The notes under the pieces were generated by a model. The model ran no database searches, was not told the DNA's origin, and worked only from the letters and a program-made list of their open reading frames with translations. The position numbers were made by a program, and so were the translations under genes. Shown in pieces: positions 3,858 through 57,676 of a stretch of DNA of 64,000 bases. The stretch is from IMG/VR virus record IMGVR_UViG_3300012007_000011, positions 155 through 64,154 of that record, one strand, 5' to 3'. The stretch comes from a virus (lineage: Duplodnaviria; Heunggongvirae; Uroviricota; Caudoviricetes). Numbering within the stretch: position 1 is the stretch's first letter; each line of letters begins with the position of its first letter.

Positions 3858-5000
3858 ATGGCAAAAAAATTAACAACTGAAGAGTTTGTACAAAGAGCGA
3901 GAAAGGTACATGGTAATAAATACGATTATTCGAAAGTGGAGTACTTAAATAATAGGACAAAGGTATGTATAATTTGTCCCGAACATGGAGAGTTTTGGCA
4001 AACACCTGATAGTCATATGTCAGGGAATAAATGCCCAAAGTGTTCTGGAACCAAGAAATTAACAACAGAAGAATTTATAGAACAAGCAAGAAAGATTCAT
4101 GGAAATAAATATGATTATTCAAAAGTTGAATATATTAACAATCATAGCAAAGTATGCATCATATGTCCAGAACATGGAGAGTTTTGGCAAACACCAATAA
4201 ACCATTGTTCAAAAAATAATCATAATGGATGTCCAATATGTGCAAAAACAATAATTGGTAATAAATTAAGAAAAAATAATTCATGTTTTATTGAAAAAGC
4301 AAGAGAAGTACATGGTGATAAATATGATTATTCAAAGGTCGAATATATAAATAACAGAACAAAGGTTTGTATAATTTGTCCTAAACATGGAGAGTTTTGG
4401 CAAACACCTGTCAATCATTTAAAAGGTCATAATTGCCCTAAATGTATTGGAAGGGGTGCATATAAATTAACAACAGAAGAGTTTATTGAAAAAGCAAAAC
4501 AAATACATGGTGATAAATATGACTACTCAAAGGTCAAATATGTAAATGCAAAAACCAAAGTTTGTATAATCTGTCCGGAACATGGAGAGTTTTGGCAAAC
4601 ACCAACCAGTCATATTGATGGAAAATGTGGATGTCCAGATTGTAATAAATTATTCAATGAAAAGAAAATAGGCGTTTTTCTAAATGAAAATGGAATTAGA
4701 TATATAAAACAAAAAACATTTAAATGGTTAGGTAAATTAAGGTTGGATTATTATTTAGTAGATTATAATATAGCAATCGAATATCAAGGCGAACAACATT
4801 TTCACTCAGTAAAATATTTTGGTGGTAATAAAAGATTTATTGATAGAATAGAGAGAGATAAAAGAAAAAAAGAATTGTGTGATAAAAATAATGTAAAAAT
4901 ATTATATGTATCGTTTTATAAAAAACCAACATATGATGTTATAAATAATTTTAAAGATTTGTTATATGAAATTCAAAGAAATATTTACAGAAAATTATAG
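3858..5000 (+). CDS. homing-endonuclease-like protein: 4 tandem zinc-ribbon modules plus a Vsr/PD-(D/E)XK-like nuclease C-terminus
   Basis: Four ~48-aa repeats of KYDYSKVEY.NN.TKVCIICPEHGEFWQTP..H..G..CP.C; the C-terminus LDYYLVDYNIAIEYQGEQHF resembles the Vsr/DUF559 nuclease core. Paralogous to 33001..33996. Confidence 0.6.
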   Translation: MAKKLTTEEFVQRARKVHGNKYDYSKVEYLNNRTKVCIICPEHGEFWQTPDSHMSGNKCPKCSGTKKLTTEEFIEQARKIHGNKYDYSKVEYINNHSKVCIICPEHGEFWQTPINHCSKNNHNGCPICAKTIIGNKLRKNNSCFIEKAREVHGDKYDYSKVEYINNRTKVCIICPKHGEFWQTPVNHLKGHNCPKCIGRGAYKLTTEEFIEKAKQIHGDKYDYSKVKYVNAKTKVCIICPEHGEFWQTPTSHIDGKCGCPDCNKLFNEKKIGVFLNENGIRYIKQKTFKWLGKLRLDYYLVDYNIAIEYQGEQHFHSVKYFGGNKRFIDRIERDKRKKELCDKNNVKILYVSFYKKPTYDVINNFKDLLYEIQRNIYRKL

Positions 5001-6375
5001 CGTTAATTGGGATTTCCTATTAACAATATCGCCATTTTCAAAAATGGTTAATTTAGAACAAAACAAGGAGTGGCATAAGGAAGATTGTTGGAAACATACA
5101 GTACTGGTTACACAAGAAATGGAAAAATTACTTAAAAGAAATCTTATTGAGAGAGGTTCTGAGAATTGGGTTATGTGTATGGCTGCTGCCTTGTGTCACG
5201 ATTTGGGAAAGGCTGATACAACCAAATGGTCTGAGGAAAAAAATGATTGGACAACAAAGAATCATGGTGTTGTCGGTGAGAGGATTACACGTCATCTTTT
5301 CTATGATGAAAACATTGTTTTAAGGGAAAAGGTATGTTATATGGTACGTCACCATATGACACTTCATCATGTATATGACAAACCAGAGGAAACAAATAAA
5401 AGGTTGATAAAATTATCACATGGTATTGTTGAAATGAGATTTATGATTTTATTGAACATTGCAGATTCGTTAGGCTCATACAATGATATAGAAACTGAAG
5501 ATAGTATTTATGACAAAGAGATGAAACTTATTAACGATGTAAGTTGTCTGCGTTGTTATCAGAAACCTTATTCTTTTATTGATAAGTCGCAACTGATTAG
5601 GAATTTCATTGACTATACTGGTGAAGTTATAAACGATAGAAATGACTTTTGTGTTTATATTCTTTGTGGTTTTCCTGGTTGTGGTAAAAGTACGTATTAT
5701 AATATGTTTCTTAATTCAAAACCTATTATATCAAGAGATATAATTCGTGGTGAGTTAGGTATTGACGGTGCAACCACAACCAACGACAAAAAAGTTGTTG
5801 GTACAAGGGAAGAGGAAGATAAAGTATCTGAAATTTTTAATAAGAAAATGATTGAATATTGTGAAAATAAGGAAAGTTTTGTTCTTGACAATACTAATCT
5901 TAAATATCAATATCGTAAAGATTATCTGTTAAAAATAATGAAATATAATCCTAAAGTGAAGATTATATATATTGAAGCACCGAATTACATTAAGGACTGT
6001 ATTGACAGAAGAAAGGGTGAGATACCGAAGAGAGTCTATGACAGAATGGAGAATAATTTTGATTTTCCACAATTGTATGAATGTGATGAGTTAACAATTG
6101 TTAAACAAGTGACAATAGAACAAGACAATGTATTTGTGTTTAAAGGCGATTTTACACCTGATTTGATATGTAATACTAATACCGTTAATGGGCGTGATTA
6201 TATATCAAAAGTAAAAGTACTAAATGATTTGTACATAACAAGAGGCGCAATGATATTGGATGGCTATGAATGTTATGACAGTTGTGTCAAATATATGGAT
6301 GAATTAATCAGCACATATAAGAACATGTTTGACTATACCGAACTGTTTGGTGAAATACCCTTAAAAAATGATTAA
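4966..6375 (+). CDS. HD-phosphohydrolase fused to a T4-Pnk-like polynucleotide 5'-kinase
   Basis: N-terminus has H..HD (HTVLV...ALCHDLGKADT) plus further His clusters. C-terminus has Walker A GFPGCGKST, IISRDIIR, and VLDNTNL matching T4 Pnk GCPGSGKST...ISDTNLNPERR. The true start may be the ATG at 5044. Confidence 0.6.
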   Translation: MKFKEIFTENYSVNWDFLLTISPFSKMVNLEQNKEWHKEDCWKHTVLVTQEMEKLLKRNLIERGSENWVMCMAAALCHDLGKADTTKWSEEKNDWTTKNHGVVGERITRHLFYDENIVLREKVCYMVRHHMTLHHVYDKPEETNKRLIKLSHGIVEMRFMILLNIADSLGSYNDIETEDSIYDKEMKLINDVSCLRCYQKPYSFIDKSQLIRNFIDYTGEVINDRNDFCVYILCGFPGCGKSTYYNMFLNSKPIISRDIIRGELGIDGATTTNDKKVVGTREEEDKVSEIFNKKMIEYCENKESFVLDNTNLKYQYRKDYLLKIMKYNPKVKIIYIEAPNYIKDCIDRRKGEIPKRVYDRMENNFDFPQLYECDELTIVKQVTIEQDNVFVFKGDFTPDLICNTNTVNGRDYISKVKVLNDLYITRGAMILDGYECYDSCVKYMDELISTYKNMFDYTELFGEIPLKND

Positions 6376-11764: not shown

Positions 11765-11795
11765 TTTGTTAATTCACATTATTGAATTATATTTG
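11765..11795 (+). promoter_or_regulatory. Bacteroidetes-type promoter (TTTG-N19-TATATTTG)
   Basis: Motif match; ~100-nt leader before metK. Confidence 0.5.
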
Positions 11796-11894
11796 CAAAC
11801 AGAGGAAAGATTTGGGGCATATTGCAACCTCTTTAAAAATGCTAAAAAGTCCCATTTAATAAATTATTTGTTTAACTTTTTAAATATTGATTAA

Positions 11895-13079
11895 ATGGTA
11901 AAAAGAATTAGTGAGAATGGAAACAAACTCATTGCAAGCGAGTTTGTTAGTTTTGGACATCCCGACAAGATTGCTGACCAAATTGCTGATGCAATTGTTG
12001 ATAATTTTTTGGCACGTGATAAAAATGCACGTACAGGAATTGAAGTCTTGGTTAAGGATAATATTGTTGTCCTTGGTGGTGAGGTTAATTCAACAGCAAG
12101 TTTCGATTATGAAAAAATTGTTCGTTTTGTTTTTTCTGAACTTAATTTTCCGTCAAATCATCATTTGTCACCGGATGAAATTAAAATTATTAACTTGATT
12201 GGAAAACAGTCAGAGGAAATACATAGTGGTGTTGACAAGGTAGATGAAATTGGGGCAGGGGACCAGGGATTCATGGTTGGCTACGCTACAAATGAAACAA
12301 GTGTATATATGCCTCTTGGACATTACATTGCTAAGAAAATCTGTAATTATGTTGCAAATTGTAGTCAATTGGGTCCTGATACTAAATCACAAGTTATTAT
12401 AGAATATGATAGTAATAACAAGGCAATAGGTATTCATAGCATTCTTGTTTCCACTATGCACCAATGTTCTCTTGAAGTGTGTCGTGAACGTGTAACTAAC
12501 GCAATTATGAATAATTTGGTTGGTATTGATAAGGATATCTATGAAAAATTCATAAAGGATAAAAATGTTAGAGTTGATGTAAATCCTTGTGGTTCTTGGC
12601 AAATTGGCGGTCCGATTTCTGATTGTGGAATTACAGGACGAAAATTGGTGGTAGATTCCTATGGTGGTTATTGTAACGTTGGTGGTGGCAATTACAGTGG
12701 TAAGGATTTCTCAAAGGTTGACCGTTCAGGTGCATATATGGCACGTTATCTTGCAAAGAACATTGTTGCAAGTGGCTTCTGTGATACTTGCCGTGTTACC
12801 TTGTCGTATATGATTGGTGTTGCACAACCTTGTTCCGTTGAAATTGATGTCAATCGTAATTTTGACAAACTTCCACAATTGAAAAAATGGATTTTGGAGA
12901 ATATTGATTTAACTCCAAATGGAATTACAGAAAGATTGCGTCATGGTGTGCTTTTATATGATTGTTCAAAATACGGACATTTCGGTTTTAAAGACAAAAA
13001 AGACAAAGATGTAATAACACTTCAAGAAAGAAAGTGGGAAAATCTTGACCTTGTTGAAGACTTGAAACAATTTGTATAA
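11895..13079 (+). CDS. metK: S-adenosylmethionine synthetase
   Basis: EFVSFGHPDKIADQIADAIVD matches MetK ESVSEGHPDKIADQISDA; GAGDQGFMVGYA matches MetK GAGDQGLMFGYA; 394 aa. Confidence 0.85.
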   Translation: MVKRISENGNKLIASEFVSFGHPDKIADQIADAIVDNFLARDKNARTGIEVLVKDNIVVLGGEVNSTASFDYEKIVRFVFSELNFPSNHHLSPDEIKIINLIGKQSEEIHSGVDKVDEIGAGDQGFMVGYATNETSVYMPLGHYIAKKICNYVANCSQLGPDTKSQVIIEYDSNNKAIGIHSILVSTMHQCSLEVCRERVTNAIMNNLVGIDKDIYEKFIKDKNVRVDVNPCGSWQIGGPISDCGITGRKLVVDSYGGYCNVGGGNYSGKDFSKVDRSGAYMARYLAKNIVASGFCDTCRVTLSYMIGVAQPCSVEIDVNRNFDKLPQLKKWILENIDLTPNGITERLRHGVLLYDCSKYGHFGFKDKKDKDVITLQERKWENLDLVEDLKQFV

Positions 13080-13172: not shown

Positions 13173-13511
13173 ATGGGAAAAATAGTGCATTTGAATGAAA
13201 GTGAATTGAAAAATATTATAGATGAAACAGTAAAAAAAGTGTTAAGTGAAGGAAAAACAAATTCATTTATTAATGAGGTTCGTAATTTCAATTCCATAAT
13301 AGATAAAACAAACAAGACCTTAAATGAAAGCAGCATTAACAGAATGTTGCAATGGCTGAAAAATTGTGACTGTGCTTTCATTAGTGCATTCAGGAATGAA
13401 TTGAAAGATGTTAGAGACATGAATGCGACTTATCTTGGACCTGACAATGAAAATCCGTGGCAATTGGAAAAGAATTTACCCATGAGGAAAATCGTCAGAA
13501 AAATAAGTTAA
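13173..13511 (+). CDS. hypothetical protein sharing the N-terminal motif with 9688..10170
   Basis: MGKIVHLNESELKNIIDETVKKVLSEGK versus MKQTIRLTESELRNLITKTVKRVLKENK. Confidence 0.45.
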   Translation: MGKIVHLNESELKNIIDETVKKVLSEGKTNSFINEVRNFNSIIDKTNKTLNESSINRMLQWLKNCDCAFISAFRNELKDVRDMNATYLGPDNENPWQLEKNLPMRKIVRKIS

Positions 13512-14119
13512 TGGTTGCTGAATTGTTACAATTAGGATATGGTGTTACAAAGGTAAAAGGTGTATATCCAGAAGGAATGACAGATGAAACATCAGAGGAA
13601 AGTTATTTGGTTGTCAATCGTAATGATGACAAGAACTTTTTGAATAACTTATTGCGTATTTCTGAATATTATAATCAAGATTCAATTTATTATAAAGAAA
13701 AGGGTAAAACAAAGGGTAATTTGATTGGCACTAATGATAACGGTTTCCCCGAATACCACCAAAAAGGTGAAGATAGTGAAATGAAAACCAGTACCGCTTC
13801 AAACTATATGTCAAGAATGGGTAATAAAGCGTTTTCTTTTGTTGGAAAGGATGCAGAAAAAGTAAATAACCGCAAAGAAGCAATGGATAGTATTGAAAAA
13901 AGTAGAGGTACTGATGATGAATGGAGACAAAGATATTGGCGTGACAATGACGGTACTTCATTTAGGGGACGTAAGGAAAACCGCAAAAATAAAATGTCTG
14001 AGGCTGTTAACTTTTGGAGAAACATGGTAGATGGCAAAATGATTATAAAAGAAGATATCCATCCATTGACAAGAAAAACAATGGGGGAGGCTTTGAGAAA
14101 AATGAGAAACAAGAAATGA
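13511..14119 (+). CDS. hypothetical protein (~202 aa)
   Basis: TAATG overlap with the upstream gene; start chosen at that ATG. Confidence 0.4.
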   Translation: MVAELLQLGYGVTKVKGVYPEGMTDETSEESYLVVNRNDDKNFLNNLLRISEYYNQDSIYYKEKGKTKGNLIGTNDNGFPEYHQKGEDSEMKTSTASNYMSRMGNKAFSFVGKDAEKVNNRKEAMDSIEKSRGTDDEWRQRYWRDNDGTSFRGRKENRKNKMSEAVNFWRNMVDGKMIIKEDIHPLTRKTMGEALRKMRNKK

Positions 14120-24049: not shown

Positions 24050-24361
24050 ATGATGAAAGAAAAACAGATTTCAGAATCAATACTTAAACTTAAGTTATTA
24101 AAAGAAAGGTTTAATGAGAGACAACGTATTCAAGAAAAAAGTAGAAATGATTTAAAAAGGTATGAAAATCTTGATAAACAATATCCAGAACATAAATATG
24201 TAGAAAATTATATAAGATACCTTGAACAAATTGTTTTTGAAAATAAGGTACTTCTTAATGCTTTGCAAAAACAGTGCCTTGATATTAAGAAAAAAATCAA
24301 AAAATTGAATAAGGAACAAAATATTAGAAACAATAAAAAGTTAGAAAAACATGACAAATAA
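24050..24361 (+). CDS. coiled-coil small protein (~103 aa)
   Basis: First ATG downstream of the promoter; the ORF-track start at 24026 is a TTG inside the -7 box. Confidence 0.45.
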   Translation: MMKEKQISESILKLKLLKERFNERQRIQEKSRNDLKRYENLDKQYPEHKYVENYIRYLEQIVFENKVLLNALQKQCLDIKKKIKKLNKEQNIRNNKKLEKHDK

Positions 24362-26126
24362 CATTTTTACAAAGAGTGATTCGTTCAAGAGTGAGTACTG
24401 TTGCAGTATCATCCGTGTGGGTGAAGTAAAACCAATTGAGGGTAAGGACAAAATTGGCTACACTCTTGTCAATGGTGAGACAATTGTGGTACGTAAAGAC
24501 CAAATTAAAGAAGGTGATGTTTTGCTTTATGCAAGCAATGAAACACAACTTGACAAGGATTTCCTTGGAGCAAACAATCTTTTTGAAAGTTCTTCATACC
24601 AACTTAATAGTAATGCAAATGAGATTGAACCTTATATTTTAAAGAATAAGGAACTTAAGGCAGAAGCAGAAAATCTTGAAAAGGTAATAAAGAAACTTTT
24701 TGTTTGTTCTAAGTTCTTGATTGGCTATGATAGTGCTGTTATTGCAGCAGGAGACAATGAGGAAGAGAAGAGTGAGTTGGAAACTCGTCTTAATAATTCA
24801 CGCAAGACAATAAGTAAGTATATAGGTGGTAGTTTTAATGAGGATAGCACACTAATAGACTATGTGACAACAGCACAGAAATATTGTGCTGAGAAGAAAA
24901 CACAACTTGATATTATTAAAAAAGAAATTGATGAAACCACTGCTTATATTCGTGGACATGTAGGATTTTTTAATAAGACTGGACGTGTCCGCTCAATTCG
25001 TCTTGGTGGTGTACAATCAATGGGTTATCTTTTCACTCTTGATGAACTTGCAAAGTATAATCCCAATGTCAAAAATATTTCTCTTAACCAATATGTTGGG
25101 GAGGATTTTGATACAATTGAAGACAAACTGTTTATCAAGGCATATGTTCCCTTTGTGCCTGAACGCAGACAAGTCTCAAAGGTGGAAAAGAGAAATAAGA
25201 AAATTGAACAGTTTGACCGTATGGTGAAAGGTGAGTTTTCTTTCCATTATGATACTGCACCACTTCCAAAGTGTATCGGAAGACTAAAGCCAAGTGATGT
25301 CGTAACAATAACAAGCAAGTTACATGGAACTTCAATTTGTATTGGTAAACTCCACGTTAAGACACCAATTAAACTTCCATTCTATAAGTGGATTTGGAAT
25401 AAGTTTGTTGACTTGACAGGACTTTTCAAGGCACATCGTATTACCGATTATGTTATTGATTACGGTAATGTCACTGCTTCACGTACAGTAATCAAAAACC
25501 AATATATCAATGAAAATGTCTCTGACGGATACTATGGTGTTGATGTATGGTCTGAGTATGGTAATCTCATTTATCCTTTCCTTTCTGAAGGAATGATTAT
25601 CTATGGTGAAATCATTGGTTATCTCACTGATAGTGATAAGATGATTCAGAAGAATTATGACTATGGCTGTAATAAGGGTAAAAACAAACTCATGATATAT
25701 CGTATCACTACAAATAATGAAGATGGAACGAAGCATGAGTGGAATGTAACAGAAGTTAAGGAATGGACTGAGAAACTTGTCAAAGACCATCCAGAAATTG
25801 CTGATAGAATCCATGTTATTGACTTGTTGTATCATGGCACACTTGCAGACCTTTATCCAAATATTTCTTATATGGACCATTGGCATGAAAATGTCCTTGA
25901 GGCATTGAGAAATGAAAAGGAACGTTTCAATATGGAGAAAAATGACCCAATCTGTAAGAATAAAGTTCCATTTGAGGGGGTCGTTCTAAGAATTGATAAT
26001 GATGAGTTTGCAGAAGCATTCAAACTTAAATGTGCAAAATTCCTTTCTAAAGAAAGAGAGGAAATTGACAAGGGAGAAGTTGATATGGAAATGCTTGATA
26101 ACTACGGAAATAATGAGGGAGTATAA
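24351..26126 (+). CDS. ATP-dependent RNA ligase (Rnl2-type nucleotidyltransferase) with an N-terminal tRNA-binding OB (Myf/Trbp111-like) domain
   Basis: N-terminal IIRVGEVKPIEGKDKIGYTLVNGETIVV matches the tRNA-binding-domain consensus (vG.v....HP.ADKL.v..vd.G....iv). Ligase motifs: I SKLHGTS (KxHGxN), III YGEIIG, IV FEGVVLR, V KLKCAKF. Confidence 0.6.
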   Translation: MTNNIFTKSDSFKSEYCCSIIRVGEVKPIEGKDKIGYTLVNGETIVVRKDQIKEGDVLLYASNETQLDKDFLGANNLFESSSYQLNSNANEIEPYILKNKELKAEAENLEKVIKKLFVCSKFLIGYDSAVIAAGDNEEEKSELETRLNNSRKTISKYIGGSFNEDSTLIDYVTTAQKYCAEKKTQLDIIKKEIDETTAYIRGHVGFFNKTGRVRSIRLGGVQSMGYLFTLDELAKYNPNVKNISLNQYVGEDFDTIEDKLFIKAYVPFVPERRQVSKVEKRNKKIEQFDRMVKGEFSFHYDTAPLPKCIGRLKPSDVVTITSKLHGTSICIGKLHVKTPIKLPFYKWIWNKFVDLTGLFKAHRITDYVIDYGNVTASRTVIKNQYINENVSDGYYGVDVWSEYGNLIYPFLSEGMIIYGEIIGYLTDSDKMIQKNYDYGCNKGKNKLMIYRITTNNEDGTKHEWNVTEVKEWTEKLVKDHPEIADRIHVIDLLYHGTLADLYPNISYMDHWHENVLEALRNEKERFNMEKNDPICKNKVPFEGVVLRIDNDEFAEAFKLKCAKFLSKEREEIDKGEVDMEMLDNYGNNEGV

Positions 26127-32986: not shown

Positions 32987-33021
32987 AAGATGGTGGACTA
33001 TTAGTGTATTCCACCATCTTT
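32987..33021. terminator. bidirectional terminator hairpin overlapping the 3' end of the - strand gene
   Basis: AAAGATGGTGGA..loop..TCCACCATCTTT. Confidence 0.4.
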
Positions 33022-33996
33022 CTTGTATTTAATGTCATATAACATTTCGTTTAAATCTGCATAATATGTGTGTTTATTTTTAAAAGTAGTTGGTACATTT
33101 TGGTCAGTGAAATAAAAAACATCAATACCATGTTCTTTGCATTGTTTAAATTTTAATTCATCTCGTTCTATTAATTCGTTAAATGTAAATATTTTTGTTT
33201 CTGTTGAAATGTTTGAAGAAAATGACGTTGCTTGAAAATGTTGTATTCCTTGACATTCAATTGCACTGTTATATTCCGGTAAATAAAAATCTAATTTCAT
33301 ATTAGTTTTATTTTTTAACCATTTAAACGTCTTTTCTTCAATAAAATATATTTTATTCTCTGACAAAAAATTAGATAAATATTTTTCAAGTTTTGATTTT
33401 TGACACTTTGGACAACCATTTCCTTGTAAATGTTTGTCTGGTGTTTGCCAAAACTCACCATGTTCTGGACATATGATACATACCTTTGTTTTGTTATTAA
33501 TATAATTTACGTTAGAATAATCATACAGGTTGTTATGTATATATTTTGCTTTCTCTATAAAAGTATTATTGTTTGAGGCTAATTTTTGTTTGTATTTTAT
33601 TTTTCCACATTCAGGACATCCGCAACCTCTGATATGTGAATTTGCTTCTTGCCAAAATTCACCATGTTCTGGACATATGATACAAACCTTTTTAGTGTTA
33701 TCAATATAGATTGTCTTAGAATAATCGTATTTGTTATTATGCACCCTTTGTGCTTCTTTAATAAAATCTTCATTTGTTTTGGTTAAACGCTTTTTATGGT
33801 TTTCGTATTTACATTTTCTACATCCTTTACCACTTAAATGGCAATTTGGCGTTTGCCAAAACTCTCCGTGTTCGGGACATATGATGCACACCTTTGTTTT
33901 ATTGTTAACATATTCCACCTTTGAATAATCATACTTGTCACCATGTACTTTTCTTGCATGTTCTATAAATTCCTCTGTTGTTACTCTTTGTTGCAT
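33001..33996 (-). CDS. homing-endonuclease-like protein: 3 zinc-ribbon modules plus a Vsr/PD-(D/E)XK-like C-terminus (paralogue of 3858..5000)
   Basis: The same repeat signature (YDYSKVEY.NN.TKVCIICPEHGEFWQ..H..G.GC..C) three times, and a C-terminal LDFYLPEYNSAIECQGIQHF. Start taken at the ATG at 33996 (the track start is a GTG at 34002). Confidence 0.6.
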   Translation of the reverse strand: MQQRVTTEEFIEHARKVHGDKYDYSKVEYVNNKTKVCIICPEHGEFWQTPNCHLSGKGCRKCKYENHKKRLTKTNEDFIKEAQRVHNNKYDYSKTIYIDNTKKVCIICPEHGEFWQEANSHIRGCGCPECGKIKYKQKLASNNNTFIEKAKYIHNNLYDYSNVNYINNKTKVCIICPEHGEFWQTPDKHLQGNGCPKCQKSKLEKYLSNFLSENKIYFIEEKTFKWLKNKTNMKLDFYLPEYNSAIECQGIQHFQATSFSSNISTETKIFTFNELIERDELKFKQCKEHGIDVFYFTDQNVPTTFKNKHTYYADLNEMLYDIKYKKDGGIH

Positions 33997-37373: not shown

Positions 37374-38183
37374 ATGGAAACATTAAAGGAAAAATGTCAA
37401 GAGTTAAGAGCAAAATATGATGTCAGTATGCCAAAGAAAACATACGCAATGGCAATGATTGATGGTAAGAACTTTTCACGTCTTATTAAAAACAAATATG
37501 AAAAACCATTTGATGATAAATTCATTAATATGATGAATGAAGTGGCAATTTATGTTTGCAAGAACGTACAAGGTTGCAAATTCGCATATACACAATCAGA
37601 TGAAATTACATTTGTTCTAACTGATTTTGAAAACGAAGAAACAAGTGCATATTTTGATTATCGTTTATGCAAAATGTTATCAATTATACCGTCACTTGCA
37701 ACGGCAAAGTTTAACCAATTGGTAACATTGAATCTGCTTGATACACCTTGTTCAACAGAAGACATGAAACAAATCATCAAACATATGTCGCTTGCACAAT
37801 TTGACTGCAAAGTGTGGAATACAGATAACTTTAATGATGTGTTTGCATATTTCCTTTGGAGGCAGATAGATTGTGTGAGAAATTCAAAACAACAAGCAGC
37901 ACAAACATATCTTTCGCATAAAGAACTTATGGGAAAACATACAGATGAACAAATTAGACTGTTGTTCGAAAAGAAAGGAATTGATTGGAACGAATATTCT
38001 GATGATAAAAAATACGGACGTTTCATATATAAGGAACAAATCGAAAAGCCATTACCAAATCATGAAGAGAATACATGTCTGAGAAATGTGTGGCTTGCGC
38101 ACGATGCGTTTGAATTATACGAAAGTGGTGGAAAACAAAGACTTTTGGAACTTGGTGTCATTCCGATTAAGATTATTGAATAA
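37374..38183 (+). CDS. Thg1-like protein (tRNA-His guanylyltransferase family 3'-5' nucleotidyltransferase)
   Basis: AMAMIDGKNFSRL matches Thg1 VVRIDGKKFHEFS. YEKPFDDKF matches FAKPNDENA. KFAYTQSDEITFVL matches ILAFGESDEYSFIL. The catalytic D (in IDG) and SDE acidic residues are conserved. Confidence 0.6.
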   Translation: METLKEKCQELRAKYDVSMPKKTYAMAMIDGKNFSRLIKNKYEKPFDDKFINMMNEVAIYVCKNVQGCKFAYTQSDEITFVLTDFENEETSAYFDYRLCKMLSIIPSLATAKFNQLVTLNLLDTPCSTEDMKQIIKHMSLAQFDCKVWNTDNFNDVFAYFLWRQIDCVRNSKQQAAQTYLSHKELMGKHTDEQIRLLFEKKGIDWNEYSDDKKYGRFIYKEQIEKPLPNHEENTCLRNVWLAHDAFELYESGGKQRLLELGVIPIKIIE

Positions 38184-45963: not shown

Positions 45964-46335
45964 ATGAACATATTTAGAAAATTATTCAAGAAGAGGAAAA
46001 CGGAAAAAATTATGGAGTGTGAGACTAATAAGAAGAAAAAATTTATGGAATGTGAGACTCTTGAAGAGTTTATCAAAGACTATAAGATGTTTCACAAACA
46101 AGAGTTAGCACTGAAAGACGGACGTAGTTACTTTAACGTTGAAACGTCAAATGTTGACGGACATTTTTGGGGAGAATATTTTGATAATGGAATAAGGATT
46201 AAAGCACTTAATGACAATAATCCGCAATTCTTGGCACAAATTAATGAGGAAGAGTTACAAGCCGAAATACTCAAAGAGTATAAAGAGGACTTAGAAAAAT
46301 CAGAGTCAGTGGAAAATAACCCAAATGAAGAATAA
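45964..46335 (+). CDS. hypothetical protein (123 aa)
   Basis: ORF. Confidence 0.4.
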   Translation: MNIFRKLFKKRKTEKIMECETNKKKKFMECETLEEFIKDYKMFHKQELALKDGRSYFNVETSNVDGHFWGEYFDNGIRIKALNDNNPQFLAQINEEELQAEILKEYKEDLEKSESVENNPNEE

Positions 46336-46369
46336 TTATGGTATTTTTTACAAACTTTAACGTAAAATA

Positions 46370-46401
46370 TTTGGTTGTTTGAAAAATAAACACTATATTT
46401 G
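46370..46401 (+). promoter_or_regulatory. Bacteroidetes sigma-A type promoter (TTTG-N20-TATATTTG) driving the non-coding RNA
   Basis: Canonical module; the predicted start is ~46407..46412, exactly where the tRNA-like acceptor strand begins; no ORF follows. Confidence 0.6.
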
Positions 46402-46411
46402 CAAATGAAAA

Positions 46412-46616
46412 CGGTGGGATAGCTCAATTTGGAGCAGAGCGCAGTCGAGGCGGTGTCCATGACGATGGGATAACACTGCTGAACATGACTGAGGGCTTTA
46501 GAAAGTCACTAAACTGTTATGTACTATAATGACACTTGGATGTAGTCTAGAATGCATTGGGAAGTAGTTACGGGAGAAACGGTGAAGTATTGGGGGTTCG
46601 AATCCTTCCCCACTGA
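46412..46616 (+). ncRNA. tRNA-like structured RNA (~205 nt): acceptor stem, D-arm and T-arm enclosing a ~130-nt insert
   Basis: 5' CGGUGGG (46412..46418) pairs with 3' CCCACUG (46609..46615): 7 bp including one G-U, then discriminator A. D-arm AGCUC-AAUUUGGAGCA-GAGC resembles the tRNA consensus uAGCUCAgUUGGuAGAGC. T-arm GGGGG-UUCGAAU-CCUUC has a canonical T-loop. No anticodon arm can be folded; the surrounding region is ~45-50% GC against ~30% background. Confidence 0.5.
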
Positions 46617-46804
46617 CTAATTGGCAAGTTATATATGAGTGGCAGTCACACTCAAGTGTAATTGGGAAACGGTATCTGAGAATTATTCCTAACCTTGGGC
46701 TGAAGGAAAGGTGACAAAAGGGGTACAATGAGGCACGGTTAAGTACACGCACGGCAATATATAATCCAAGCCATTTTTTTTTTAACCAATGAAATGTGTA
46801 AAAT

Positions 46805-47359
46805 ATGAAAGGTAGCAGTAACACGAAAAAATTTAAGAAATTTCAGATAAGATGGGCAGAGAGGTTGGGTTATGAAAATAACCCATATCTTATTAGATGG
46901 ACTTTCATCTTTTTTGGATATTCAATGAGAATACACCATTGGATTAAATCTGATGACAATAGATTTTTTCATGACCATTCTGCTGACCTTCTCAGCATTG
47001 TACTAAAGGGAAGATATTGGAATGTAAAACCAATTGTCAATGACAAGAATCCAAATGATATGGTAAATGTAATCCAATATGAAAAGGATTTGGGTGAGGT
47101 TTTGGGAAGGAACGAAAAATGGTGTTATGTTGAAGGAATTTTCAATTCTTGGCGCAATTTCTTTCATATGAAAAATTCAATTTGGTTTTCAAAGGCAGAA
47201 GATAGACATTATCTCAGCATTCCAAAAGGTGGTGCTTGGACTTTAATGTTTGAAGGAAAACCAAGGCATAAATGGGGATTTTATGTGAACGGTCACAAAT
47301 GGAGACCATTGCGTTATTTTCATAAATATGGTATAAGACAAGATGCAGAATATCAATAA
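46805..47359 (+). CDS. hypothetical protein (184 aa), upstream partner of the radical-SAM gene
   Basis: ORF overlapping the radical-SAM gene by 17 nt. Confidence 0.45.
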   Translation: MKGSSNTKKFKKFQIRWAERLGYENNPYLIRWTFIFFGYSMRIHHWIKSDDNRFFHDHSADLLSIVLKGRYWNVKPIVNDKNPNDMVNVIQYEKDLGEVLGRNEKWCYVEGIFNSWRNFFHMKNSIWFSKAEDRHYLSIPKGGAWTLMFEGKPRHKWGFYVNGHKWRPLRYFHKYGIRQDAEYQ

Positions 47360-55941: not shown

Positions 55942-56652
55942 TTAACGAAATAATTTTGGGGTTTTTATTGGTTTTCCACCATTTTTAATTGAATCATACC
56001 ACTGACCATTGGTATCCAAACCAAGTATCTCTGTGCCGATTAACTTATCAGCAACTATCTTCACTATATCTTCACCACATCTTCCTTCATAATCCTTTTT
56101 CAAATAGTTTTCTCTTTCTTCTTGGTATTTCTTGCTCTGTATGAAACCACAACAAGACAACTCCGGACAAAATCCCCTATAAACACAATCGGGAACCATC
56201 TTGTCAGCCATTACCGGGTCAATCTTCCTAATTGCTTCCCTTACTTGTTTCCATGCTTCCCTTGTTTCCGTGCTTGCACAACCACACAAACGCTTTCTTG
56301 ATATGTTTATCAGTGACTGAGCGTTGCAACTCATCATCATATCGTTAAGGCTTCCTTGCGGCATTTCATCACGTGGAACAGGGTTATCACGTCTGTCTTG
56401 TCTTTGGGAATGTACAAACTTCTCACAACCTATGTAGTGTCGTACAAGATGTGTAGTAACCCAAGTCTTGATATTATTCCATTTGAAATCATATTCAACA
56501 AGTCTGATTGGAGAATGTTCTGCCAATAATATAGAAGCCCACCATTTCTTAGTAGGCTCTTTATTTATTTCTTCTTTGCCAATTGTTTCCCTTGCAGCGT
56601 TCAATGCCCTTTTCCATGTTGTAGCCATTGTACATTTTACTATCTCACTCAT
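55942..56652 (-). CDS. thyX: flavin-dependent thymidylate synthase ThyX-like
   Basis: LVRHYIGCEKFVHSQRQDR matches the ThyX signature RHR-x7-8-SQR; 236 aa is the right size. Confidence 0.5.
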   Translation of the reverse strand: MSEIVKCTMATTWKRALNAARETIGKEEINKEPTKKWWASILLAEHSPIRLVEYDFKWNNIKTWVTTHLVRHYIGCEKFVHSQRQDRRDNPVPRDEMPQGSLNDMMMSCNAQSLINISRKRLCGCASTETREAWKQVREAIRKIDPVMADKMVPDCVYRGFCPELSCCGFIQSKKYQEERENYLKKDYEGRCGEDIVKIVADKLIGTEILGLDTNGQWYDSIKNGGKPIKTPKLFR

Positions 56653-57676
56653 TGTCTGCTTCCATTAAATCCGTTATTATTACTGTTTTGTTTTCTCTGA
56701 AATATCTGAATCCATTTAGGAAATCCTCAATATTCATAATTTTCTTACTGGCAATCTGTATTCTCTTTATATAAACACATTTTCCACAATCCGCCAAATT
56801 CAATCTCACAAACGTTTTGCCATCACTTTCACAATACAAAGTCTGCACGTTCATTGGTGTTTCTTCTTTATTAACAACTTCAACATCATAAATCTTGGCT
56901 TCAAATTTCTTCTCATTATTGTCTTCGTCAATTACATAGATAATGCAAGGTAAACCAACATTGTCAACAGAATTGACCAACCTTTGCATTCTTTCACAAT
57001 CAAAATGAGACCAATGACAACGGAAATAATCTGAATTTATCTTATGTGCGTCAATAACATATTCATGTTCATGATTCCAACTTGGTTGTACAATCAAACA
57101 ATCCTTCCAATCTTCATGTTGAAGGACATCTTCAATGACATGTCCCGTAAAGTCCACACAAGCATTCGATAACTTCTTGTATAAGGTGGTATATTTCTCT
57201 CCTGCTGCGATTTTAACTCTTGTGTTGGCAATTATATCACCGTGGTCAATTTTGTCGTTTAGAACGAATGCTGTAAGTCCCGTCTCCTTATAACCAAGTT
57301 TGATTGCCCAATTGATTGGTGCTGCACCACGAAGAAATGGTAAAAGAGAAGCATGAACATTAAAAGCACACTTCTTCGCAAGTTTGATTATTTCCTTTGG
57401 CAGTTTCTTAAATGAAATAACACAGAAGATATCGGCATCCATTCTTTTCAACCAATCAATAAAGAAAGCATCTTCTTCAAACTTTTCTCCCTTTATCATA
57501 TAATAAGGAACTCTTAGTTCCTCTGCAACTTGTTTTATTGTCTTCTTGTGAAACCTGACTTTATCATTAGCACAAGTAACAAGACCAACAATATTGCTGC
57601 CATTATTTACCAATGTTTCAAACGTGTCAATTGCAAAATCACCATTTGCAAAAAATACTACTCTATCCTTTGTCAT
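56645..57676 (-). CDS. formyltransferase, methionyl-tRNA formyltransferase (Fmt)-like with a C-terminal domain
   Basis: N-terminal RVVFFANGDFAIDTFETLV...IVGLVTCAND matches the Fmt IVFMGTPDFA...VVT.PD motif; NVHASLLPFLRGAAPINWAI is the formyltransferase catalytic motif; the 343 aa include an Fmt-like C-terminal domain. Overlaps thyX by 8 nt. Confidence 0.6.
   Translation of the reverse strand: MTKDRVVFFANGDFAIDTFETLVNNGSNIVGLVTCANDKVRFHKKTIKQVAEELRVPYYMIKGEKFEEDAFFIDWLKRMDADIFCVISFKKLPKEIIKLAKKCAFNVHASLLPFLRGAAPINWAIKLGYKETGLTAFVLNDKIDHGDIIANTRVKIAAGEKYTTLYKKLSNACVDFTGHVIEDVLQHEDWKDCLIVQPSWNHEHEYVIDAHKINSDYFRCHWSHFDCERMQRLVNSVDNVGLPCIIYVIDEDNNEKKFEAKIYDVEVVNKEETPMNVQTLYCESDGKTFVRLNLADCGKCVYIKRIQIASKKIMNIEDFLNGFRYFRENKTVIITDLMEADNE

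What the first reader, a model, noticed from the sequence alone, without database searches (positions are those of the whole stretch)
46336..46804. Promoter-driven ~205-nt tRNA-like RNA with acceptor, D- and T-arms but a ~130-nt insert instead of an anticodon arm, in a ~470-bp GC-rich non-coding island
A canonical phage/Bacteroidetes promoter (46370..46401) fires into a region with no plausible ORF; the only ORF called there is an antisense artefact. Transcription is predicted to start at ~46410. From there the sequence has three tRNA hallmarks:
- A 5' strand CGGUGGG that pairs over 7 bp (one G-U) with CCCACUG at 46609..46615, followed by a discriminator A.
- A D-arm very close to the tRNA consensus (AGCUCAAUUUGG..GAGC).
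- A perfect T-arm (GGGGG-UUCGAAU-CCUUC).

The ~130 nt between the D-arm and the variable region cannot be folded into an anticodon stem. It is too short for a group I or II intron. It does not look like tmRNA: there is no resume codon with an ALAA-type tag, and the best tag frame ends LESH. A second ~180-nt GC-rich structured stretch (46617..46800) follows and ends in a T10 run. GC content here is ~45-50% against ~30% elsewhere.

Candidate roles are a permuted, split or intron-containing tRNA, a decoy or substrate for host anticodon nucleases, or a processing scaffold for a small RNA. It sits in a genome that also encodes tRNA ligase, Pnk, Thg1-like and Fmt-like enzymes.
Basis: partly seen in the sequence, partly recalled or inferred. 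Interest (0 to 1): 0.8.

Follow-up and report, generated by a model that had tools for sequence, protein, structure and literature searches.

The report
Expanded tRNA-like RNA linked to cupin
A rumen/gut jumbo-phage genome carries a real, conserved 205-nucleotide RNA that descends from a valine tRNA, has lost a normal anticodon loop, has grown two long extra arms, and sits just upstream of the same small metal-enzyme (cupin) gene in nearly all related phages examined, so it probably acts as a tRNA mimic and not as a decoder.

Summary
Window 46412-46616 (+) is a promoter-driven, non-coding, 205-nt tRNA-like RNA.

- **Not a known family.** ARAGORN finds no tRNA or tmRNA. Rfam gives only a 13.7-bit partial tRNA hit.
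- **Structure is conserved.** Twelve close homologues from metagenomes keep the fold. 94.9% of cells are paired, 31 of 50 pairs show compensatory changes, and 0 of 500 shuffles reach this.
- **The "130-nt insert" is two arms.** A 5-bp stem sits at the anticodon-stem position. It continues into a long arm capped by an invariant CCAU-GACG-AUGG. A separate ~100-nt giant variable arm ends in a conserved UCUAGA loop.
- **Valine tRNA ancestry.** The 3' side of the former anticodon loop is always N-A-C-A-U, a valine anticodon plus 37/38. C1-G72 and A73 are fixed in nearly all of the ~30 linked copies, and position 2:71 is usually G.U or A-U.
- **Not a decoder.** Relatives without inserts carry G33 or an 8-nt loop, so the lineage is not an ordinary decoder.
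- **Linked to a cupin gene.** The RNA lies upstream of a 3-His cupin gene in all 12 close members, and in about 30 of about 37 distinct cupin loci by my manual tally.
- **Second RNA.** The stretch at 46622-46773 is a separate conserved structured RNA.

Function is inferred: a tRNA mimic matured like a tRNA, possibly valylated, working with the cupin. I rate it a new variant of a known kind.

The parts
46370..46401 (+). Bacteroidetes-type promoter (TTTG ... TATATTTG). The predicted start is a few nt before 46412.
   Evidence: Pattern match (27 sites in the window against 8 expected). The same TTTGG-N(19-21)-TAnnTTTGC sits upstream of the homologues in L008, L132, L121, L178, L179, L002 and L186. 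L003 has no promoter and directly follows another tRNA.
46412..46616 (+). RNA1: the whole 205-nt tRNA-derived RNA, from acceptor 5' strand to discriminator A73. No CCA is encoded.
   Evidence: CM R2 gives 211.6 bits. Twelve homologues are 202-206 nt long.
46412..46418 (+). Acceptor stem 5' strand CGGUGGG. It pairs with 46609-46615 CCCACUG. A73 is at 46616.
   Evidence: 7 of 7 pairs are kept in 12 sequences and 3 pairs are compensatory. C1-G72 is invariant and 2:71 is G.U or A-U. C1-G72/A73 is rare among ordinary tRNAs of the same loci: 9 of 109, and 4 of those 9 are the cupin-adjacent genes.
46422..46440 (+). D-arm: GCUC / GAGC with loop AAUUUGGAGCA. U8, A14, G18, G19 and A21 are present.
   Evidence: The GCUC/GAGC to GUUC/GAAC compensatory change is seen in 4 of 12 sequences.
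46442..46491 (+). Arm at the anticodon position. It comprises a 5-bp stem (46442-46446/46487-46491), the 5' junction GAG, a 7-bp helix (46450-46456/46473-46479), the 3' bulge GAUA, and a 4-bp cap CCAU-GACG-AUGG (46457-46468). There is no anticodon loop.
   Evidence: In the 10-sequence alignment A5, 96% of cells are paired and 13 of 20 pairs are compensatory, with 0 of 500 shuffles reaching this.
46480..46486 (+). 3' junction UGAACAU, the remnant of anticodon-loop positions 32-38 (AAC = valine anticodon, then A37 and U38).
   Evidence: N-A-C-A-U lies before the 3' strand of the stem in all family members aligned. The insert-free relatives L010 (AGAACAU) and L018/L025 (UGAAACAU) are. UAC versions occur in L013, L030, L009, L187, L028 and L016.
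46494..46507 (+). Hairpin A (GGCUU-UAGA-AAGUC), the first element of the variable-region domain.
   Evidence: Predicted in the separate MFE fold of each of the 12 sequences. Helix 6 is 84% paired, with 2 pairs compensatory.
46508..46588 (+). Giant variable arm: ACU/AGU, then ACUGUU/AACGGU, an irregular middle, and a terminal hairpin with the conserved loop GUCUAGAA (46545-46552).
   Evidence: MFE folds of 12 sequences agree. Helices 7-9 have 14 of 15 pairs compensatory. The domain length is conserved at 97-101 nt.
46592..46608 (+). T-arm GGGGG-UUCGAAU-CCUUC.
   Evidence: Helix 10 is 100% paired.
46622..46773 (+). RNA2: a second, separate conserved structured RNA of unknown class. It has a closing helix UGGC/GCCA, hairpin GAGUG-GCAGUCA-CACUC (46637-46653), and hairpin CCUU-GGGCUG-AAGG (46693-46706). 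It is present in only some relatives.
   Evidence: Homologues are in L170, L121, L179 and L180. RNAalifold predicts 32 pairs, 5 of them compensatory. By eye the closing helix covaries: UGGC/GCCA, AUGAC/GUCAU, UGGCG/CGCCA, AUGACU/AGUCAU. There is no Rfam match and no match in IMG/VR.
46805..47359 (+). Linked gene: a 184-aa cupin with invariant His58 and His135 and near-invariant His56 (in at least 90% of sequences), giving a 3-His HxH...H pattern.
   Evidence: PHROG 4786 "cysteine dioxygenase", E = 6.5e-21. No Pfam or NCBIfam match. The AF2 model has pLDDT 70.6 and the best Foldseek hits are generic cupins. The gene is downstream of RNA1 in all 12 close members.

Best explanation
**What it is (shown).** Window 46412-46616 encodes a 205-nt RNA that descends from a valine tRNA.
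- It keeps the tRNA core: a 7-bp acceptor stem, D-arm, T-arm, and the nucleotides that build the L-shape (U8, A14, G18G19, T-loop).
- Two tolerated sites have been expanded. A hairpin capped by GACG is inserted on the 5' side of the former anticodon loop, turning it into a long continuous arm. The variable loop has grown into a ~100-nt domain ending in a UCUAGA loop.
- It has its own Bacteroidetes-type promoter.
- It lies directly upstream of a small 3-His cupin gene.

**How it most likely works (inferred).**
- The transcript is trimmed by RNase P at C1 and by a 3' nuclease after A73, then receives CCA like any tRNA. This cut also releases the cupin mRNA with a short 5' leader.
- The mature RNA cannot decode. 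It has no 7-nt anticodon loop and no U33, and it carries two bulky arms.
- It still shows an aminoacylation-type identity set: A73, A35-C36 in the single-stranded junction, and a fixed C1-G72 with R2-U71.
- I therefore think it acts off the ribosome as a tRNA mimic. It is read at its acceptor end by a protein and is possibly charged by ValRS. The co-transcribed cupin is the most likely partner, using the RNA as substrate, carrier or cofactor. The long arms would provide lineage-specific binding surfaces and keep it out of translation.
For: - **Real structured RNA.** In 12 homologues 94.9% of cells pair, 31 of 50 pairs are compensatory, and 0 of 500 shuffles reach this. Slid controls give 36-53%. 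The 5' domain tested on an independent MAFFT alignment gives 96% paired and 13 of 20 compensatory.
- **tRNA core.**. The shorter relatives L187 and L186 pass Rfam's tRNA gathering score.
- **Valine ancestry.** N-A-C-A-U is conserved across divergent lineages, including canonical-size relatives that ARAGORN calls tRNA-Val. The valine identity set (A73 and A35, with C36 complementing A35 in valylatable viral tRNA-like structures) is taken from PMC9976931.
- **Non-decoding.** Insert-free relatives have AGAACAU (G33) or the 8-nt UGAAACAU.
- **Fixed acceptor end.** C1-G72 is 12/12, and 2:71 is G.U or A-U. This end is rare in the other tRNAs of the same loci.
- **Linkage to the cupin.** 12 of 12 close members have it. 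By my manual tally, about 30 of about 37 distinct cupin loci have such a tRNA-like gene within ~350 nt, even at ~50% protein identity.
- **Co-transcription.** The gap between RNA and start codon is 7-31 nt in many loci, with no room for a promoter.
- **tRNA-end enzymes nearby.** Thg1, RNA ligase and an HD-kinase are in the window. A CCA-adding enzyme lies ~0.6 kb downstream of the cupin gene in L178.
Against: - No expression, end-mapping or charging data exist.
- The cupin has no known RNA-related relative. Foldseek gives only generic cupins at E about 6e-4, and the model is of moderate confidence.
- The expansions differ greatly between lineages, so they may not be the functional part.
- C1-G72 is a proline or archaeal-tyrosine identity element, not a valine one.
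- G.U pairs in the acceptor stem can weaken valylation.
- Linkage could reflect only operon history inside tRNA arrays.
- The full-length pair counts were made on an alignment fitted to the model.
Confidence: 0.5

Rival explanations
1. Intron-containing tRNA-Val. The hairpin between positions 31 and 32, and perhaps the giant variable domain, are removed by an unknown endonuclease. The halves are rejoined by the phage RNA ligase and kinase-phosphatase, giving a working (if odd) valine tRNA.
For: - In L030, deleting the ~70-nt insert leaves a perfect 7-nt loop CUUACAU.
- In the window, deleting 46447-46479 leaves UGAACAU.
- The phage encodes an RNA ligase, an HD-kinase and Thg1.
- Lak megaphages were reported to have tRNAs with "enigmatic introns" (10.1101/356790).
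Against: - There is no match to any self-splicing or self-cleaving RNA family at E<=10. The ~33-nt inserted segment is far too small for a group I intron.
- The two junctions face each other as a 3x7 internal loop. This is not a bulge-helix-bulge arrangement (read directly from the sequence).
- After removal, the AAC-type loop has G33 or A33, and insert-free relatives have the same defect or an 8-nt loop.
- Both expansions show compensatory changes and conserved loops.
- The phages also carry ordinary tRNA-Val genes.
Confidence: 0.15
2. Decoy or sponge. A tRNA look-alike soaks up a host anti-phage factor that attacks tRNA acceptor ends or elbows (for example toxins that modify the CCA end), or a tRNA-binding enzyme. 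This would protect real tRNAs. The cupin linkage would be incidental.
For: - The acceptor stem, T-arm and D/T elbow are intact, and the RNA has a strong promoter of its own.
- The anticodon function is lost.
- The genome invests in RNA repair genes.
- Jumbo phages are known to counter tRNA-targeting defences (PMC7824862).
Against: - It does not explain the near-obligate pairing with the cupin gene over ~50% protein divergence.
- It does not explain why A35-C36 and one specific rare acceptor end are kept.
- No defence or anti-defence annotation was found for the neighbours.
Confidence: 0.15
3. Purely cis-acting element. The tRNA-like fold exists only so that RNase P and RNase Z cut the transcript and create or stabilise the cupin mRNA (tRNA punctuation). 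The released RNA has no function of its own.
For: - The RNA lies 7-31 nt before the cupin start codon in many loci, with no intervening promoter.
- The L003 copy sits inside a tRNA array without its own promoter.
Against: - A processing signal needs only the acceptor and T-arm. It does not explain conservation of N-A-C-A-U, the GACG and UCUAGA loops, the length-conserved variable domain, or a fixed C1-G72/U71/A73.
- In the window, L170, L121 and L179 a second RNA separates the RNA from the gene. In L002, L093 and L171 a small ORF separates them.
Confidence: 0.15
4. A known RNA class (tmRNA, Y-RNA-like YrlA, group I/II intron, riboswitch), or a chance resemblance to tRNA in non-coding DNA.
For: The T-arm and acceptor alone give a weak Rfam tRNA hit. 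tmRNA and YrlA also contain tRNA-like modules.
Against: - ARAGORN finds no tmRNA.
- No Rfam family matches at E<=10 other than chance-level hits.
- The topology differs from tmRNA, where everything is nested inside the helix at the anticodon position. It also differs from YrlA, where the ends form the Ro-binding stem.
- Covariation rules out chance.
Confidence: 0.02

Closest known systems
Canonical bacterial/phage tRNA-Val, and class II tRNAs with long variable arms
   Same: - Colinear cloverleaf order: 7-bp acceptor stem, U8, D-arm with G18G19, 5-bp stem at the anticodon-stem position, T-arm UUCGAAU, A73, and an A35-C36-A37-U38 remnant.
- Canonical-size relatives are called tRNA-Val by ARAGORN.
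   Different: - No 7-nt anticodon loop and no U33.
- A 33-nt segment (GAG plus a hairpin) is inserted at 31/32.
- The variable domain is ~100 nt, against 21 nt or less in class II tRNAs.
- C1-G72 replaces G1-C72, and there is an extra A between position 7 and U8.
- Neither ARAGORN nor Rfam's tRNA model detects it.
Plant-virus valylatable tRNA-like structures (TYMV TLS-Val)
   Same: A viral, non-decoding tRNA mimic that keeps the valine identity nucleotides (A35, C36, often A73) while the rest of the anticodon domain is remodelled (PMC9976931).
   Different: - The TLS is the 3' end of an RNA genome and builds its acceptor arm with a pseudoknot.
- This is a free-standing gene in a dsDNA phage with an ordinary acceptor helix and huge expansions.
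- There is no sequence relationship, and charging has not been tested here.
tRNAs with "enigmatic introns" in Lak megaphages (Devoto et al., 10.1101/356790)
   Same: Over-long tRNA genes in very large gut and rumen phages. They are missed by bacterial tRNA finders, their inserts are highly conserved between cohorts, and no Rfam class was found for the inserts.
   Different: - Those were described as decoders (Phe, Gly, Thr, Tyr) with eukaryote-style predicted excision points.
- Here the lineage lacks a normal anticodon loop even without inserts, has two expansions, and is linked to a cupin gene.
- Homology between the two sets was not tested.
tmRNA
   Same: A tRNA-like acceptor and T-arm combined with a large non-tRNA body. 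It acts in a role other than ordinary decoding.
   Different: - No G3.U70, no tag ORF, and no pseudoknots nested in the helix at the anticodon position.
- A full D-arm is present.
- ARAGORN and Rfam are negative.
Bacterial Y-RNA-like RNAs (YrlA) that work with Ro/Rsr
   Same: A tRNA-mimicking module in a non-coding RNA that partners with a specific protein. They occur in some jumbo phages (PMC7824862).
   Different: - In YrlA the 5' and 3' ends form the Ro-binding stem and the tRNA-like part is internal. Here the ends form a true acceptor stem.
- There is no Rfam YrlA hit on RNA1.
- The Pfam, PHROG and NCBIfam scans covered only a subset of the window's ORFs and showed no Ro/TROVE match.
Phage T4 stable RNAs C and D (species 1 and 2) in the T4 tRNA cluster (recalled from my own knowledge, not tested)
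   Same: Phage-encoded stable small RNAs of still unknown function. They sit among tRNA genes and are processed with them.
   Different: The T4 RNAs are ~120-140 nt and are not known to be linked to a cupin.

Membership tests
Canonical tRNA (Rfam RF00005 / ARAGORN definition) | Detected by tRNA covariance or heuristic models at family threshold | tested here: not met
   ARAGORN finds 0 genes in the window. Rfam tRNA scores 13.7 bits against a gathering score of 29, covering only the T-arm and acceptor. Shorter relatives do pass: L187 at 33.6 bits and L186 at 45.6 bits.
Canonical tRNA (Rfam RF00005 / ARAGORN definition) | Acceptor stem, D-arm, T-arm and tertiary-core nucleotides | tested here: met
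   A 7-bp acceptor, GCUC/GAGC D-stem, U8, A14, G18G19, and T-loop UUCGAAU. All are kept with covariation.
Canonical tRNA (Rfam RF00005 / ARAGORN definition) | 7-nt anticodon loop with U33 and a purine at 37, closing a 5-bp stem | tested here: not met
   The 5-bp stem is present, but it encloses GAG + a 30-nt hairpin + UGAACAU. Insert-free relatives have G33 or 8-nt loops.
tmRNA | tRNA-Ala-like end with G3.U70, a resume codon with a tag ORF, and pseudoknots | tested here: not met
   ARAGORN in tmRNA mode is negative. There is no Rfam tmRNA hit. Position 3:70 is G-C or A-U.
tRNA interrupted by a group I intron | An intron with the P3-P9 catalytic core (about 200 nt or more) in the anticodon loop | tested here: not met
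   No Rfam intron hit at E<=10. The insert in the loop is a simple ~33-nt segment (GAG plus a hairpin).
tRNA with an archaeal/eukaryal-type intron | Bulge-helix-bulge motif (two 3-nt bulges separated by 4 bp), usually at 37/38 | tested here: not met
   The junctions GAG and UGAACAU lie directly opposite each other, and the insert is at 31/32. No splicing endonuclease was identified. The weak Sen54-N Pfam hits come from zinc-finger repeat proteins with 0 significant stretches.
Aminoacylatable viral tRNA-like structure (valine type) | Valine identity nucleotides A35, C36 (and A73) presented in a tRNA-shaped fold | tested here: met
   AAC-A-U or UAC-A-U is conserved at the junction, and A73 is conserved. 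The identity set is taken from PMC9976931.
Aminoacylatable viral tRNA-like structure (valine type) | Actually charged by ValRS, and ending in CCA | not testable with these tools
   CCA is not encoded (A73 is followed by CUA). Charging needs a biochemical assay.
YrlA / Y RNA | The 5'/3' ends form a Ro-binding helix, the tRNA-like module is internal, and a Ro/TROVE partner gene is present | tested here: not met
   The ends form an acceptor stem. There is no Rfam YrlA match on RNA1. No TROVE hit appeared among the scanned ORFs, which cover only part of the window.
Cupin-linked tRNA-Val-like family (defined here) | C1-G72, U71, A73; an N-A-C remnant; a position directly upstream of the 184-aa cupin gene | tested here: met
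   The window copy has all three features. 12 of 12 close members are cupin-linked. The wider family is shown.

The most novel reading that the evidence does not exclude
The RNA is a dedicated, non-ribosomal aminoacyl carrier. It would be matured and CCA-tailed like a tRNA and charged (most likely with valine) by a host or phage synthetase. The co-transcribed 3-His cupin oxygenase would then use it as its substrate or cofactor. This would be a tRNA-dependent enzymatic pathway encoded by a phage, with the long arms serving as the enzyme's docking sites. An equally novel alternative that the data do not exclude is a new protein-dependent tRNA splicing system in phages, with inserts at position 31/32 and in the variable loop that are rejoined by the phage RNA ligase and kinase.
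Probability: 0.15. Interest if true: 0.9.

Novelty: new variant of a known kind. Interest (0 to 1): 0.65.

Why it matters
- **Why phages carry tRNA-like genes.** Huge phages carry many tRNA genes, some oddly long and unexplained. This case shows that at least one such lineage is not a decoder. It is a tRNA-derived RNA under strong structural selection and is tied to one protein gene. That turns the vague problem of "enigmatic phage tRNA inserts" into a testable pair: one RNA and one small metal enzyme.
- **Possible parallel to plant viruses.** If the RNA is charged or bound by the cupin, it would be a DNA-phage counterpart of the plant-virus tRNA-like structures. It could also reveal a new tRNA-dependent reaction.
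- **Annotation.** It gives annotators a covariance model for genes that ARAGORN and Rfam miss.
- **Second unclassified RNA.** It flags another structured RNA of unknown class (RNA2) next to the first.

Tried and rejected
1. **BLAST against phage records.** The region and 12 kb around it gave no match in 50,697 INPHARED phage records.
2. **D-arm + TGACGATGG pattern in IMG/VR.** It mostly returned ordinary tRNAs in which TGACGATGG is variable loop plus T-stem.
3. **Metagenome pattern scan.** Only 5 new members were recovered, using nhmmer.
4. **RNA1 pattern in 185,579 species genomes.** No match. Cupin homologues there are only mis-binned phage contigs in MAGs.
5. **RNA2 pattern in IMG/VR.** No match.
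6. **Plain MAFFT + RNAalifold.** On 4 full-length sequences, and later on the 12-sequence variable domain, it gave poor consensus structures because of register errors. I replaced it with per-sequence folds and a CM-guided alignment.
7. **Automatic tally script.** My script for counting acceptor ends upstream of every cupin gene was too strict and missed known cases. The tally was made from inspected sequences and CM hits instead.
8. **Function of the cupin.** Pfam and NCBIfam give nothing. A PDB sequence search gives nothing. Foldseek gives generic cupins only.
9. **Hammerhead-like core.** I considered CUGA...GAAA around 46488-46504 and rejected it. The sequence is CUGAGGG, not CUGANGA, and no Rfam ribozyme hit exists.
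10. **RNA1-RNA2 kissing.** I considered pairing of the CAGUCA loop with UGACUG and rejected it. It does not covary in L121.
11. **The conserved ...TTGACA after the acceptor as a -35 box.** Rejected, because there is no room for a -10 box before the start codon.
Full report
**1. The observation**

The region 46336-46804 is the largest gap between genes in the window. It lies between + strand ORFs 45964-46335 and 46805-47359.
- GC rises to 0.41-0.455, against 0.29-0.37 around it.
TTTG-N21-TATATTTG occupies 46370-46401. This Bacteroidetes-type motif occurs 27 times in the window against 8 expected, mostly in front of + strand genes.
- The sigma-70 scan is uninformative for such promoters and finds no terminator inside the region.
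- From 46412 the sequence reads CGGUGGG-A-UA-GCUC-AAUUUGGAGCA-GAGC..., and it ends ...GGGGG-UUCGAAU-CCUUC-CCCACUG-A at 46616. The acceptor, D-arm, T-arm and discriminator are as described.
- ARAGORN reports no tRNA or tmRNA anywhere in the 64 kb.
- Rfam at gathering thresholds finds only an unrelated SAM-II riboswitch at 11796-11855. A permissive Rfam search of 46300-46850 gives only a 13.7-bit partial tRNA hit over the T-arm and acceptor, plus two chance hits.

**2. Homologues**

Nothing similar exists in 50,697 deposited phage genomes. Exact-word scans of IMG/VR found one relative. I recovered more through the downstream protein, one metagenome pattern scan filtered with nhmmer, and look-ups of contigs that encode close homologues of that protein.
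- The close family has 12 distinct members: window, L170, L008, L140, L132, L093, L091, L179, L181, L178, L002 and L121. All are 202-206 nt long.
- More distant members are L003, L167-169, L171-176, L187, L038, L007, L009, L011, L019/27/32, L030 and L186.
- All come from large phage contigs (100-640 kb) or short metagenome contigs. The labelled samples I could see are rumen-type: one search names a water-deer omasum, and the gut/rumen attribution is otherwise my inference.
- None is in 185,579 species-representative genomes, apart from phage contigs mis-binned into MAGs.

**3. Structure of the 5' half**

A plain MAFFT alignment of 10 sequences was tested against a structure I wrote from the sequences. 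It gave 96% of cells paired and 13 of 20 pairs with changes on both sides. None of 500 shuffles reached this, and slid controls gave 28-48%.

A 5-bp stem sits exactly where the anticodon stem belongs (46442-46446 with 46487-46491). It varies as CAGUC/GACUG, UAGUC/GACUA, CAAUC/GAUUG and CUAUU/AAUAG. All five pairs of this stem are compensatory.

That stem does not close a 7-nt loop. It opens into the following, in order:
- a 3-nt 5' junction (GAG);
- a 7-bp helix with heavy covariation;
- a 3' bulge (GAUA, GUAA or GCAA);
- an invariant cap CCAU-GACG-AUGG;
- a 7-8-nt 3' junction, UGAACAU or CGAAACAU.

**4. Structure of the rest**

About 100 nt lie between that arm and the T-arm. This stretch is 97-101 nt in every close member. 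Independent minimum-energy folds of all 12 sequences give the same layout:
- a short hairpin A with a GNRA-like loop;
- one long irregular arm that starts with ACU/AGU and ACUGUU/AACGGU and ends in a hairpin whose loop carries the conserved UCUAGA.

The second helix covaries fully, for example GCAAC/GUUGC in L093 and AUUAUCUU/AAGACAAU in L179.

I built a full-length covariance model on this structure and realigned the 12 sequences to it.
- 94.9% of cells pair, and 31 of 50 pairs have compensatory changes.
- 0 of 500 shuffles reach this, and slid controls give 36-53%.
- This alignment is fitted to the model, so it leans towards the structure. The unfitted test of the 5' half and the independent folds point the same way.

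RNA1 is therefore a colinear cloverleaf with two expansions. It is neither permuted nor split.

**5. Ancestry**

The cupin gene downstream of RNA1 (section 6) has homologues in 37 IMG/VR loci. Most sit inside tRNA arrays. In most of these loci a tRNA or tRNA-like gene lies immediately upstream.
- Some are of canonical size, and ARAGORN calls them tRNA-Val: L013 with loop AUUACCU and L010 with loop AGAACAU.
- Others have an 8-nt loop UGAAACAU (L025, and L018 further upstream).
- The expanded versions all keep the same letters just before the 3' strand of the stem: CUG-AAC-AU, GA-AAC-AU, UCG-AAC-AU, UUA-AAC-AA, or A-UAC-AU, CU-UAC-AU and AA-UAC-GG.

NAC is the valine anticodon family. A73 and A35 are valine identity elements, and C36 complements A35 in valylatable viral tRNA-like structures (PMC9976931).

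So the lineage derives from tRNA-Val, and the GACG-capped hairpin is an insertion between positions 31 and 32/33. The AAC-type members, including the window, have G or A at position 33 even when no insert is present. That is not what a working decoder looks like.

The acceptor end is also fixed.
- C1-G72 is found in all 12 close members, position 2:71 is G.U or A-U, and the end is A73 followed by C. Nearly all distant members share this.
- Among 109 distinct ordinary tRNAs in the same loci, only 9 have C1-G72/A73. Four of these are the cupin-adjacent genes and three are tRNA-Pro.

**6. The linked gene**

ORF 46805-47359 encodes a 184-aa protein.
- It has no Pfam or NCBIfam match.
- It matches PHROG 4786, "cysteine dioxygenase", at E = 6.5e-21.
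- It has 617 unannotated relatives in metagenomes.
- His58 and His135 are invariant and His56 is near-invariant (in at least 90% of sequences). Together they fit a 3-His cupin site.
- An AlphaFold model of moderate confidence (pLDDT 70.6) matches only generic cupins such as HppE, Mn-cupins and thiol/ergothioneine dioxygenases, at E about 6e-4.
- No PDB sequence relative exists.

All 12 close RNA1 copies have this gene downstream. It follows directly (12-31 nt), after RNA2, or after a tiny ORF. By my manual tally of the inspected sequences and CM hits, about 30 of about 37 distinct cupin loci have a C1-G72/A73 tRNA-like gene within ~350 nt. This holds even where the proteins are only ~50% identical. 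In one locus (L011) the RNA lies downstream.

The short gaps leave no room for a separate promoter, so co-transcription is the simplest reading. That is an inference.

In the window a B12-binding radical SAM gene follows the cupin. It is not a constant neighbour.

**7. The second RNA**

The stretch 46617-46800 is absent from most relatives. It is present in L170, L121, L179 and L180. It is a separate unit, roughly 46622-46773.
- **Closing helix:** UGGC/GCCA becomes AUGAC/GUCAU, UGGCG/CGCCA and AUGACU/AGUCAU. I read this by eye.
- **First hairpin:** it carries the conserved loop (R)CAGUCA.
- **Second hairpin:** CCUU-GGGCUG-AAGG, which covaries to CUUU/AAAG.
- **Long-range helices:** RNAalifold predicts further pairings, giving 32 pairs in all, 5 of them compensatory, from only 4 sequences.
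- **Database matches:** it matches no Rfam family and is not in IMG/VR.
- **T10 run:** the run at 46774-46783 is not conserved.
- **Role:** unknown. A regulatory leader of the cupin gene is a reasonable guess.

**8.

All four enzyme claims were confirmed:
- RNA ligase at 24351-26123;
- HD phosphohydrolase fused to a P-loop kinase at 4966-6372;
- Thg1 family at 37374-38180;
- a formyltransferase with the Fmt C-terminal domain at 56648-57676 (-).

The window also holds a 3'-5' exoribonuclease and a metallophosphoesterase. One relative has a CCA-adding enzyme gene ~0.6 kb downstream of its cupin gene.

**9. Interpretation**

*Shown:* a conserved, promoter-driven, tRNA-Val-derived RNA with an intact tRNA core, no normal anticodon loop, two structurally constrained expansions, a fixed unusual acceptor end, and tight linkage to a cupin gene.

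*Inferred:*
- It is matured by RNase P, a 3' nuclease and the CCA-adding enzyme.
- It does not decode.
- It is read at the acceptor end, and through A35-C36, by a protein. ValRS charging is the obvious candidate, by analogy with valylatable plant-virus tRNA-like structures.
- It works with the cupin.

I put about 0.9 on the "what it is" part and about 0.3 on the specific cupin-partner or charging mechanism. The overall figure of 0.5 reflects both.

*Rivals:*
- **Spliced tRNA-Val.** This is attractive because removing the insert restores a 7-nt loop, which is perfect in L030, and because the phage has a ligase and a kinase. It is weakened by the G33 and 8-nt loops of insert-free relatives, by the lack of any ribozyme or bulge-helix-bulge signature, and by selection on the inserts.
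- **Decoy for acceptor-end-targeting host factors.** It does not explain the cupin linkage.
- **Pure processing signal for the cupin mRNA.** It does not explain the conserved loops and identity nucleotides.
- **tmRNA, YrlA, known introns, or chance.** These are excluded.

**10. Comparison and novelty**

Over-long tRNA genes with "enigmatic introns" were reported in Lak megaphages, so the general phenomenon is known. Three literature searches found no description of four points:
- this family;
- its non-decoding loops;
- its architecture of two long arms;
- its cupin linkage.

Rfam 15 has no model for it. I rate it a new variant of a known kind (tRNA-derived or tRNA-mimicking RNAs), with interest 0.65.

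Noticed in passing
window 11765-13079 and 13511-14116: A SAM-II riboswitch (46.4 bits, above Rfam gathering) at 11796-11855 sits just after a Bacteroidetes-type promoter and just before a phage-encoded SAM synthetase (metK). A SAM-lyase-family gene follows shortly after. The phage thus carries both SAM-making and SAM-destroying genes, with a riboswitch on the former.
   Followed up: partly
window 46622-46773: RNA2 is a second conserved structured RNA between the tRNA-like RNA and the cupin gene. It is present only in some relatives (L170, L121, L179, L180), shows covarying helices, and has no Rfam match.
   Followed up: partly
L008 1235-1326; L012 1206-1299; L019 4395-4478 and 6098-6184; L171 3272-3360; L140 942-1025: Apparently functional decoder tRNAs of related jumbo phages for class I isotypes (Val, Lys, His, Ile) carry long variable arms like class II tRNAs.
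   Followed up: no
L018 2090-2166; L025 about 2911-2985: tRNAs of normal size carry the same 8-nt anticodon loop UGAAACAU in unrelated stems. ARAGORN reads L018 as a four-base anticodon (aaac); it did not call the L025 gene. They could be non-decoders or quadruplet readers.
   Followed up: no
L170 2736-2857; L186 941-1083; L004 about 1868-1990: Further tRNA genes with 50-70-nt insertions lie in the same phage tRNA arrays. L170 and L186 pass Rfam's tRNA threshold; L004 was only seen by eye. Their relation to the Lak-phage "introns" is unknown.
   Followed up: no
L030 512-655; L003 2786-2975: The L030 insert contains a second copy of the CGAAACAUGAUC module inside a UAC-type tRNA-like gene. L003 has two tandem GACG-capped hairpins in its long arm and sits directly after another tRNA without its own promoter.
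   Followed up: no
window 1-64000: No tRNA gene is detected in the whole window, although the cupin gene of most relatives lies inside dense tRNA arrays.
   Followed up: no
window 55945-57676 (-): A formyltransferase with the Met-tRNA-formyltransferase C-terminal domain lies next to a ThyX-like gene. It could act on nucleotides and not on tRNA.
   Followed up: no
window 3858-4997 (+) and 33004-33996 (-): Two paralogous zinc-finger repeat proteins (DUF4379/DUF723) collect many spurious short Pfam hits, including the tRNA-splicing endonuclease Sen54 N-terminal family. They should not be read as splicing enzymes.
   Followed up: no
L186-L189 (genome contigs): Contigs carrying the cupin gene are filed in MAGs labelled Mycoplasmatota, Bacilli, Woesearchaeota and Bacteroidaceae. 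One is a 376-kb contig from a deer omasum. These look like mis-binned jumbo-phage contigs.
   Followed up: no
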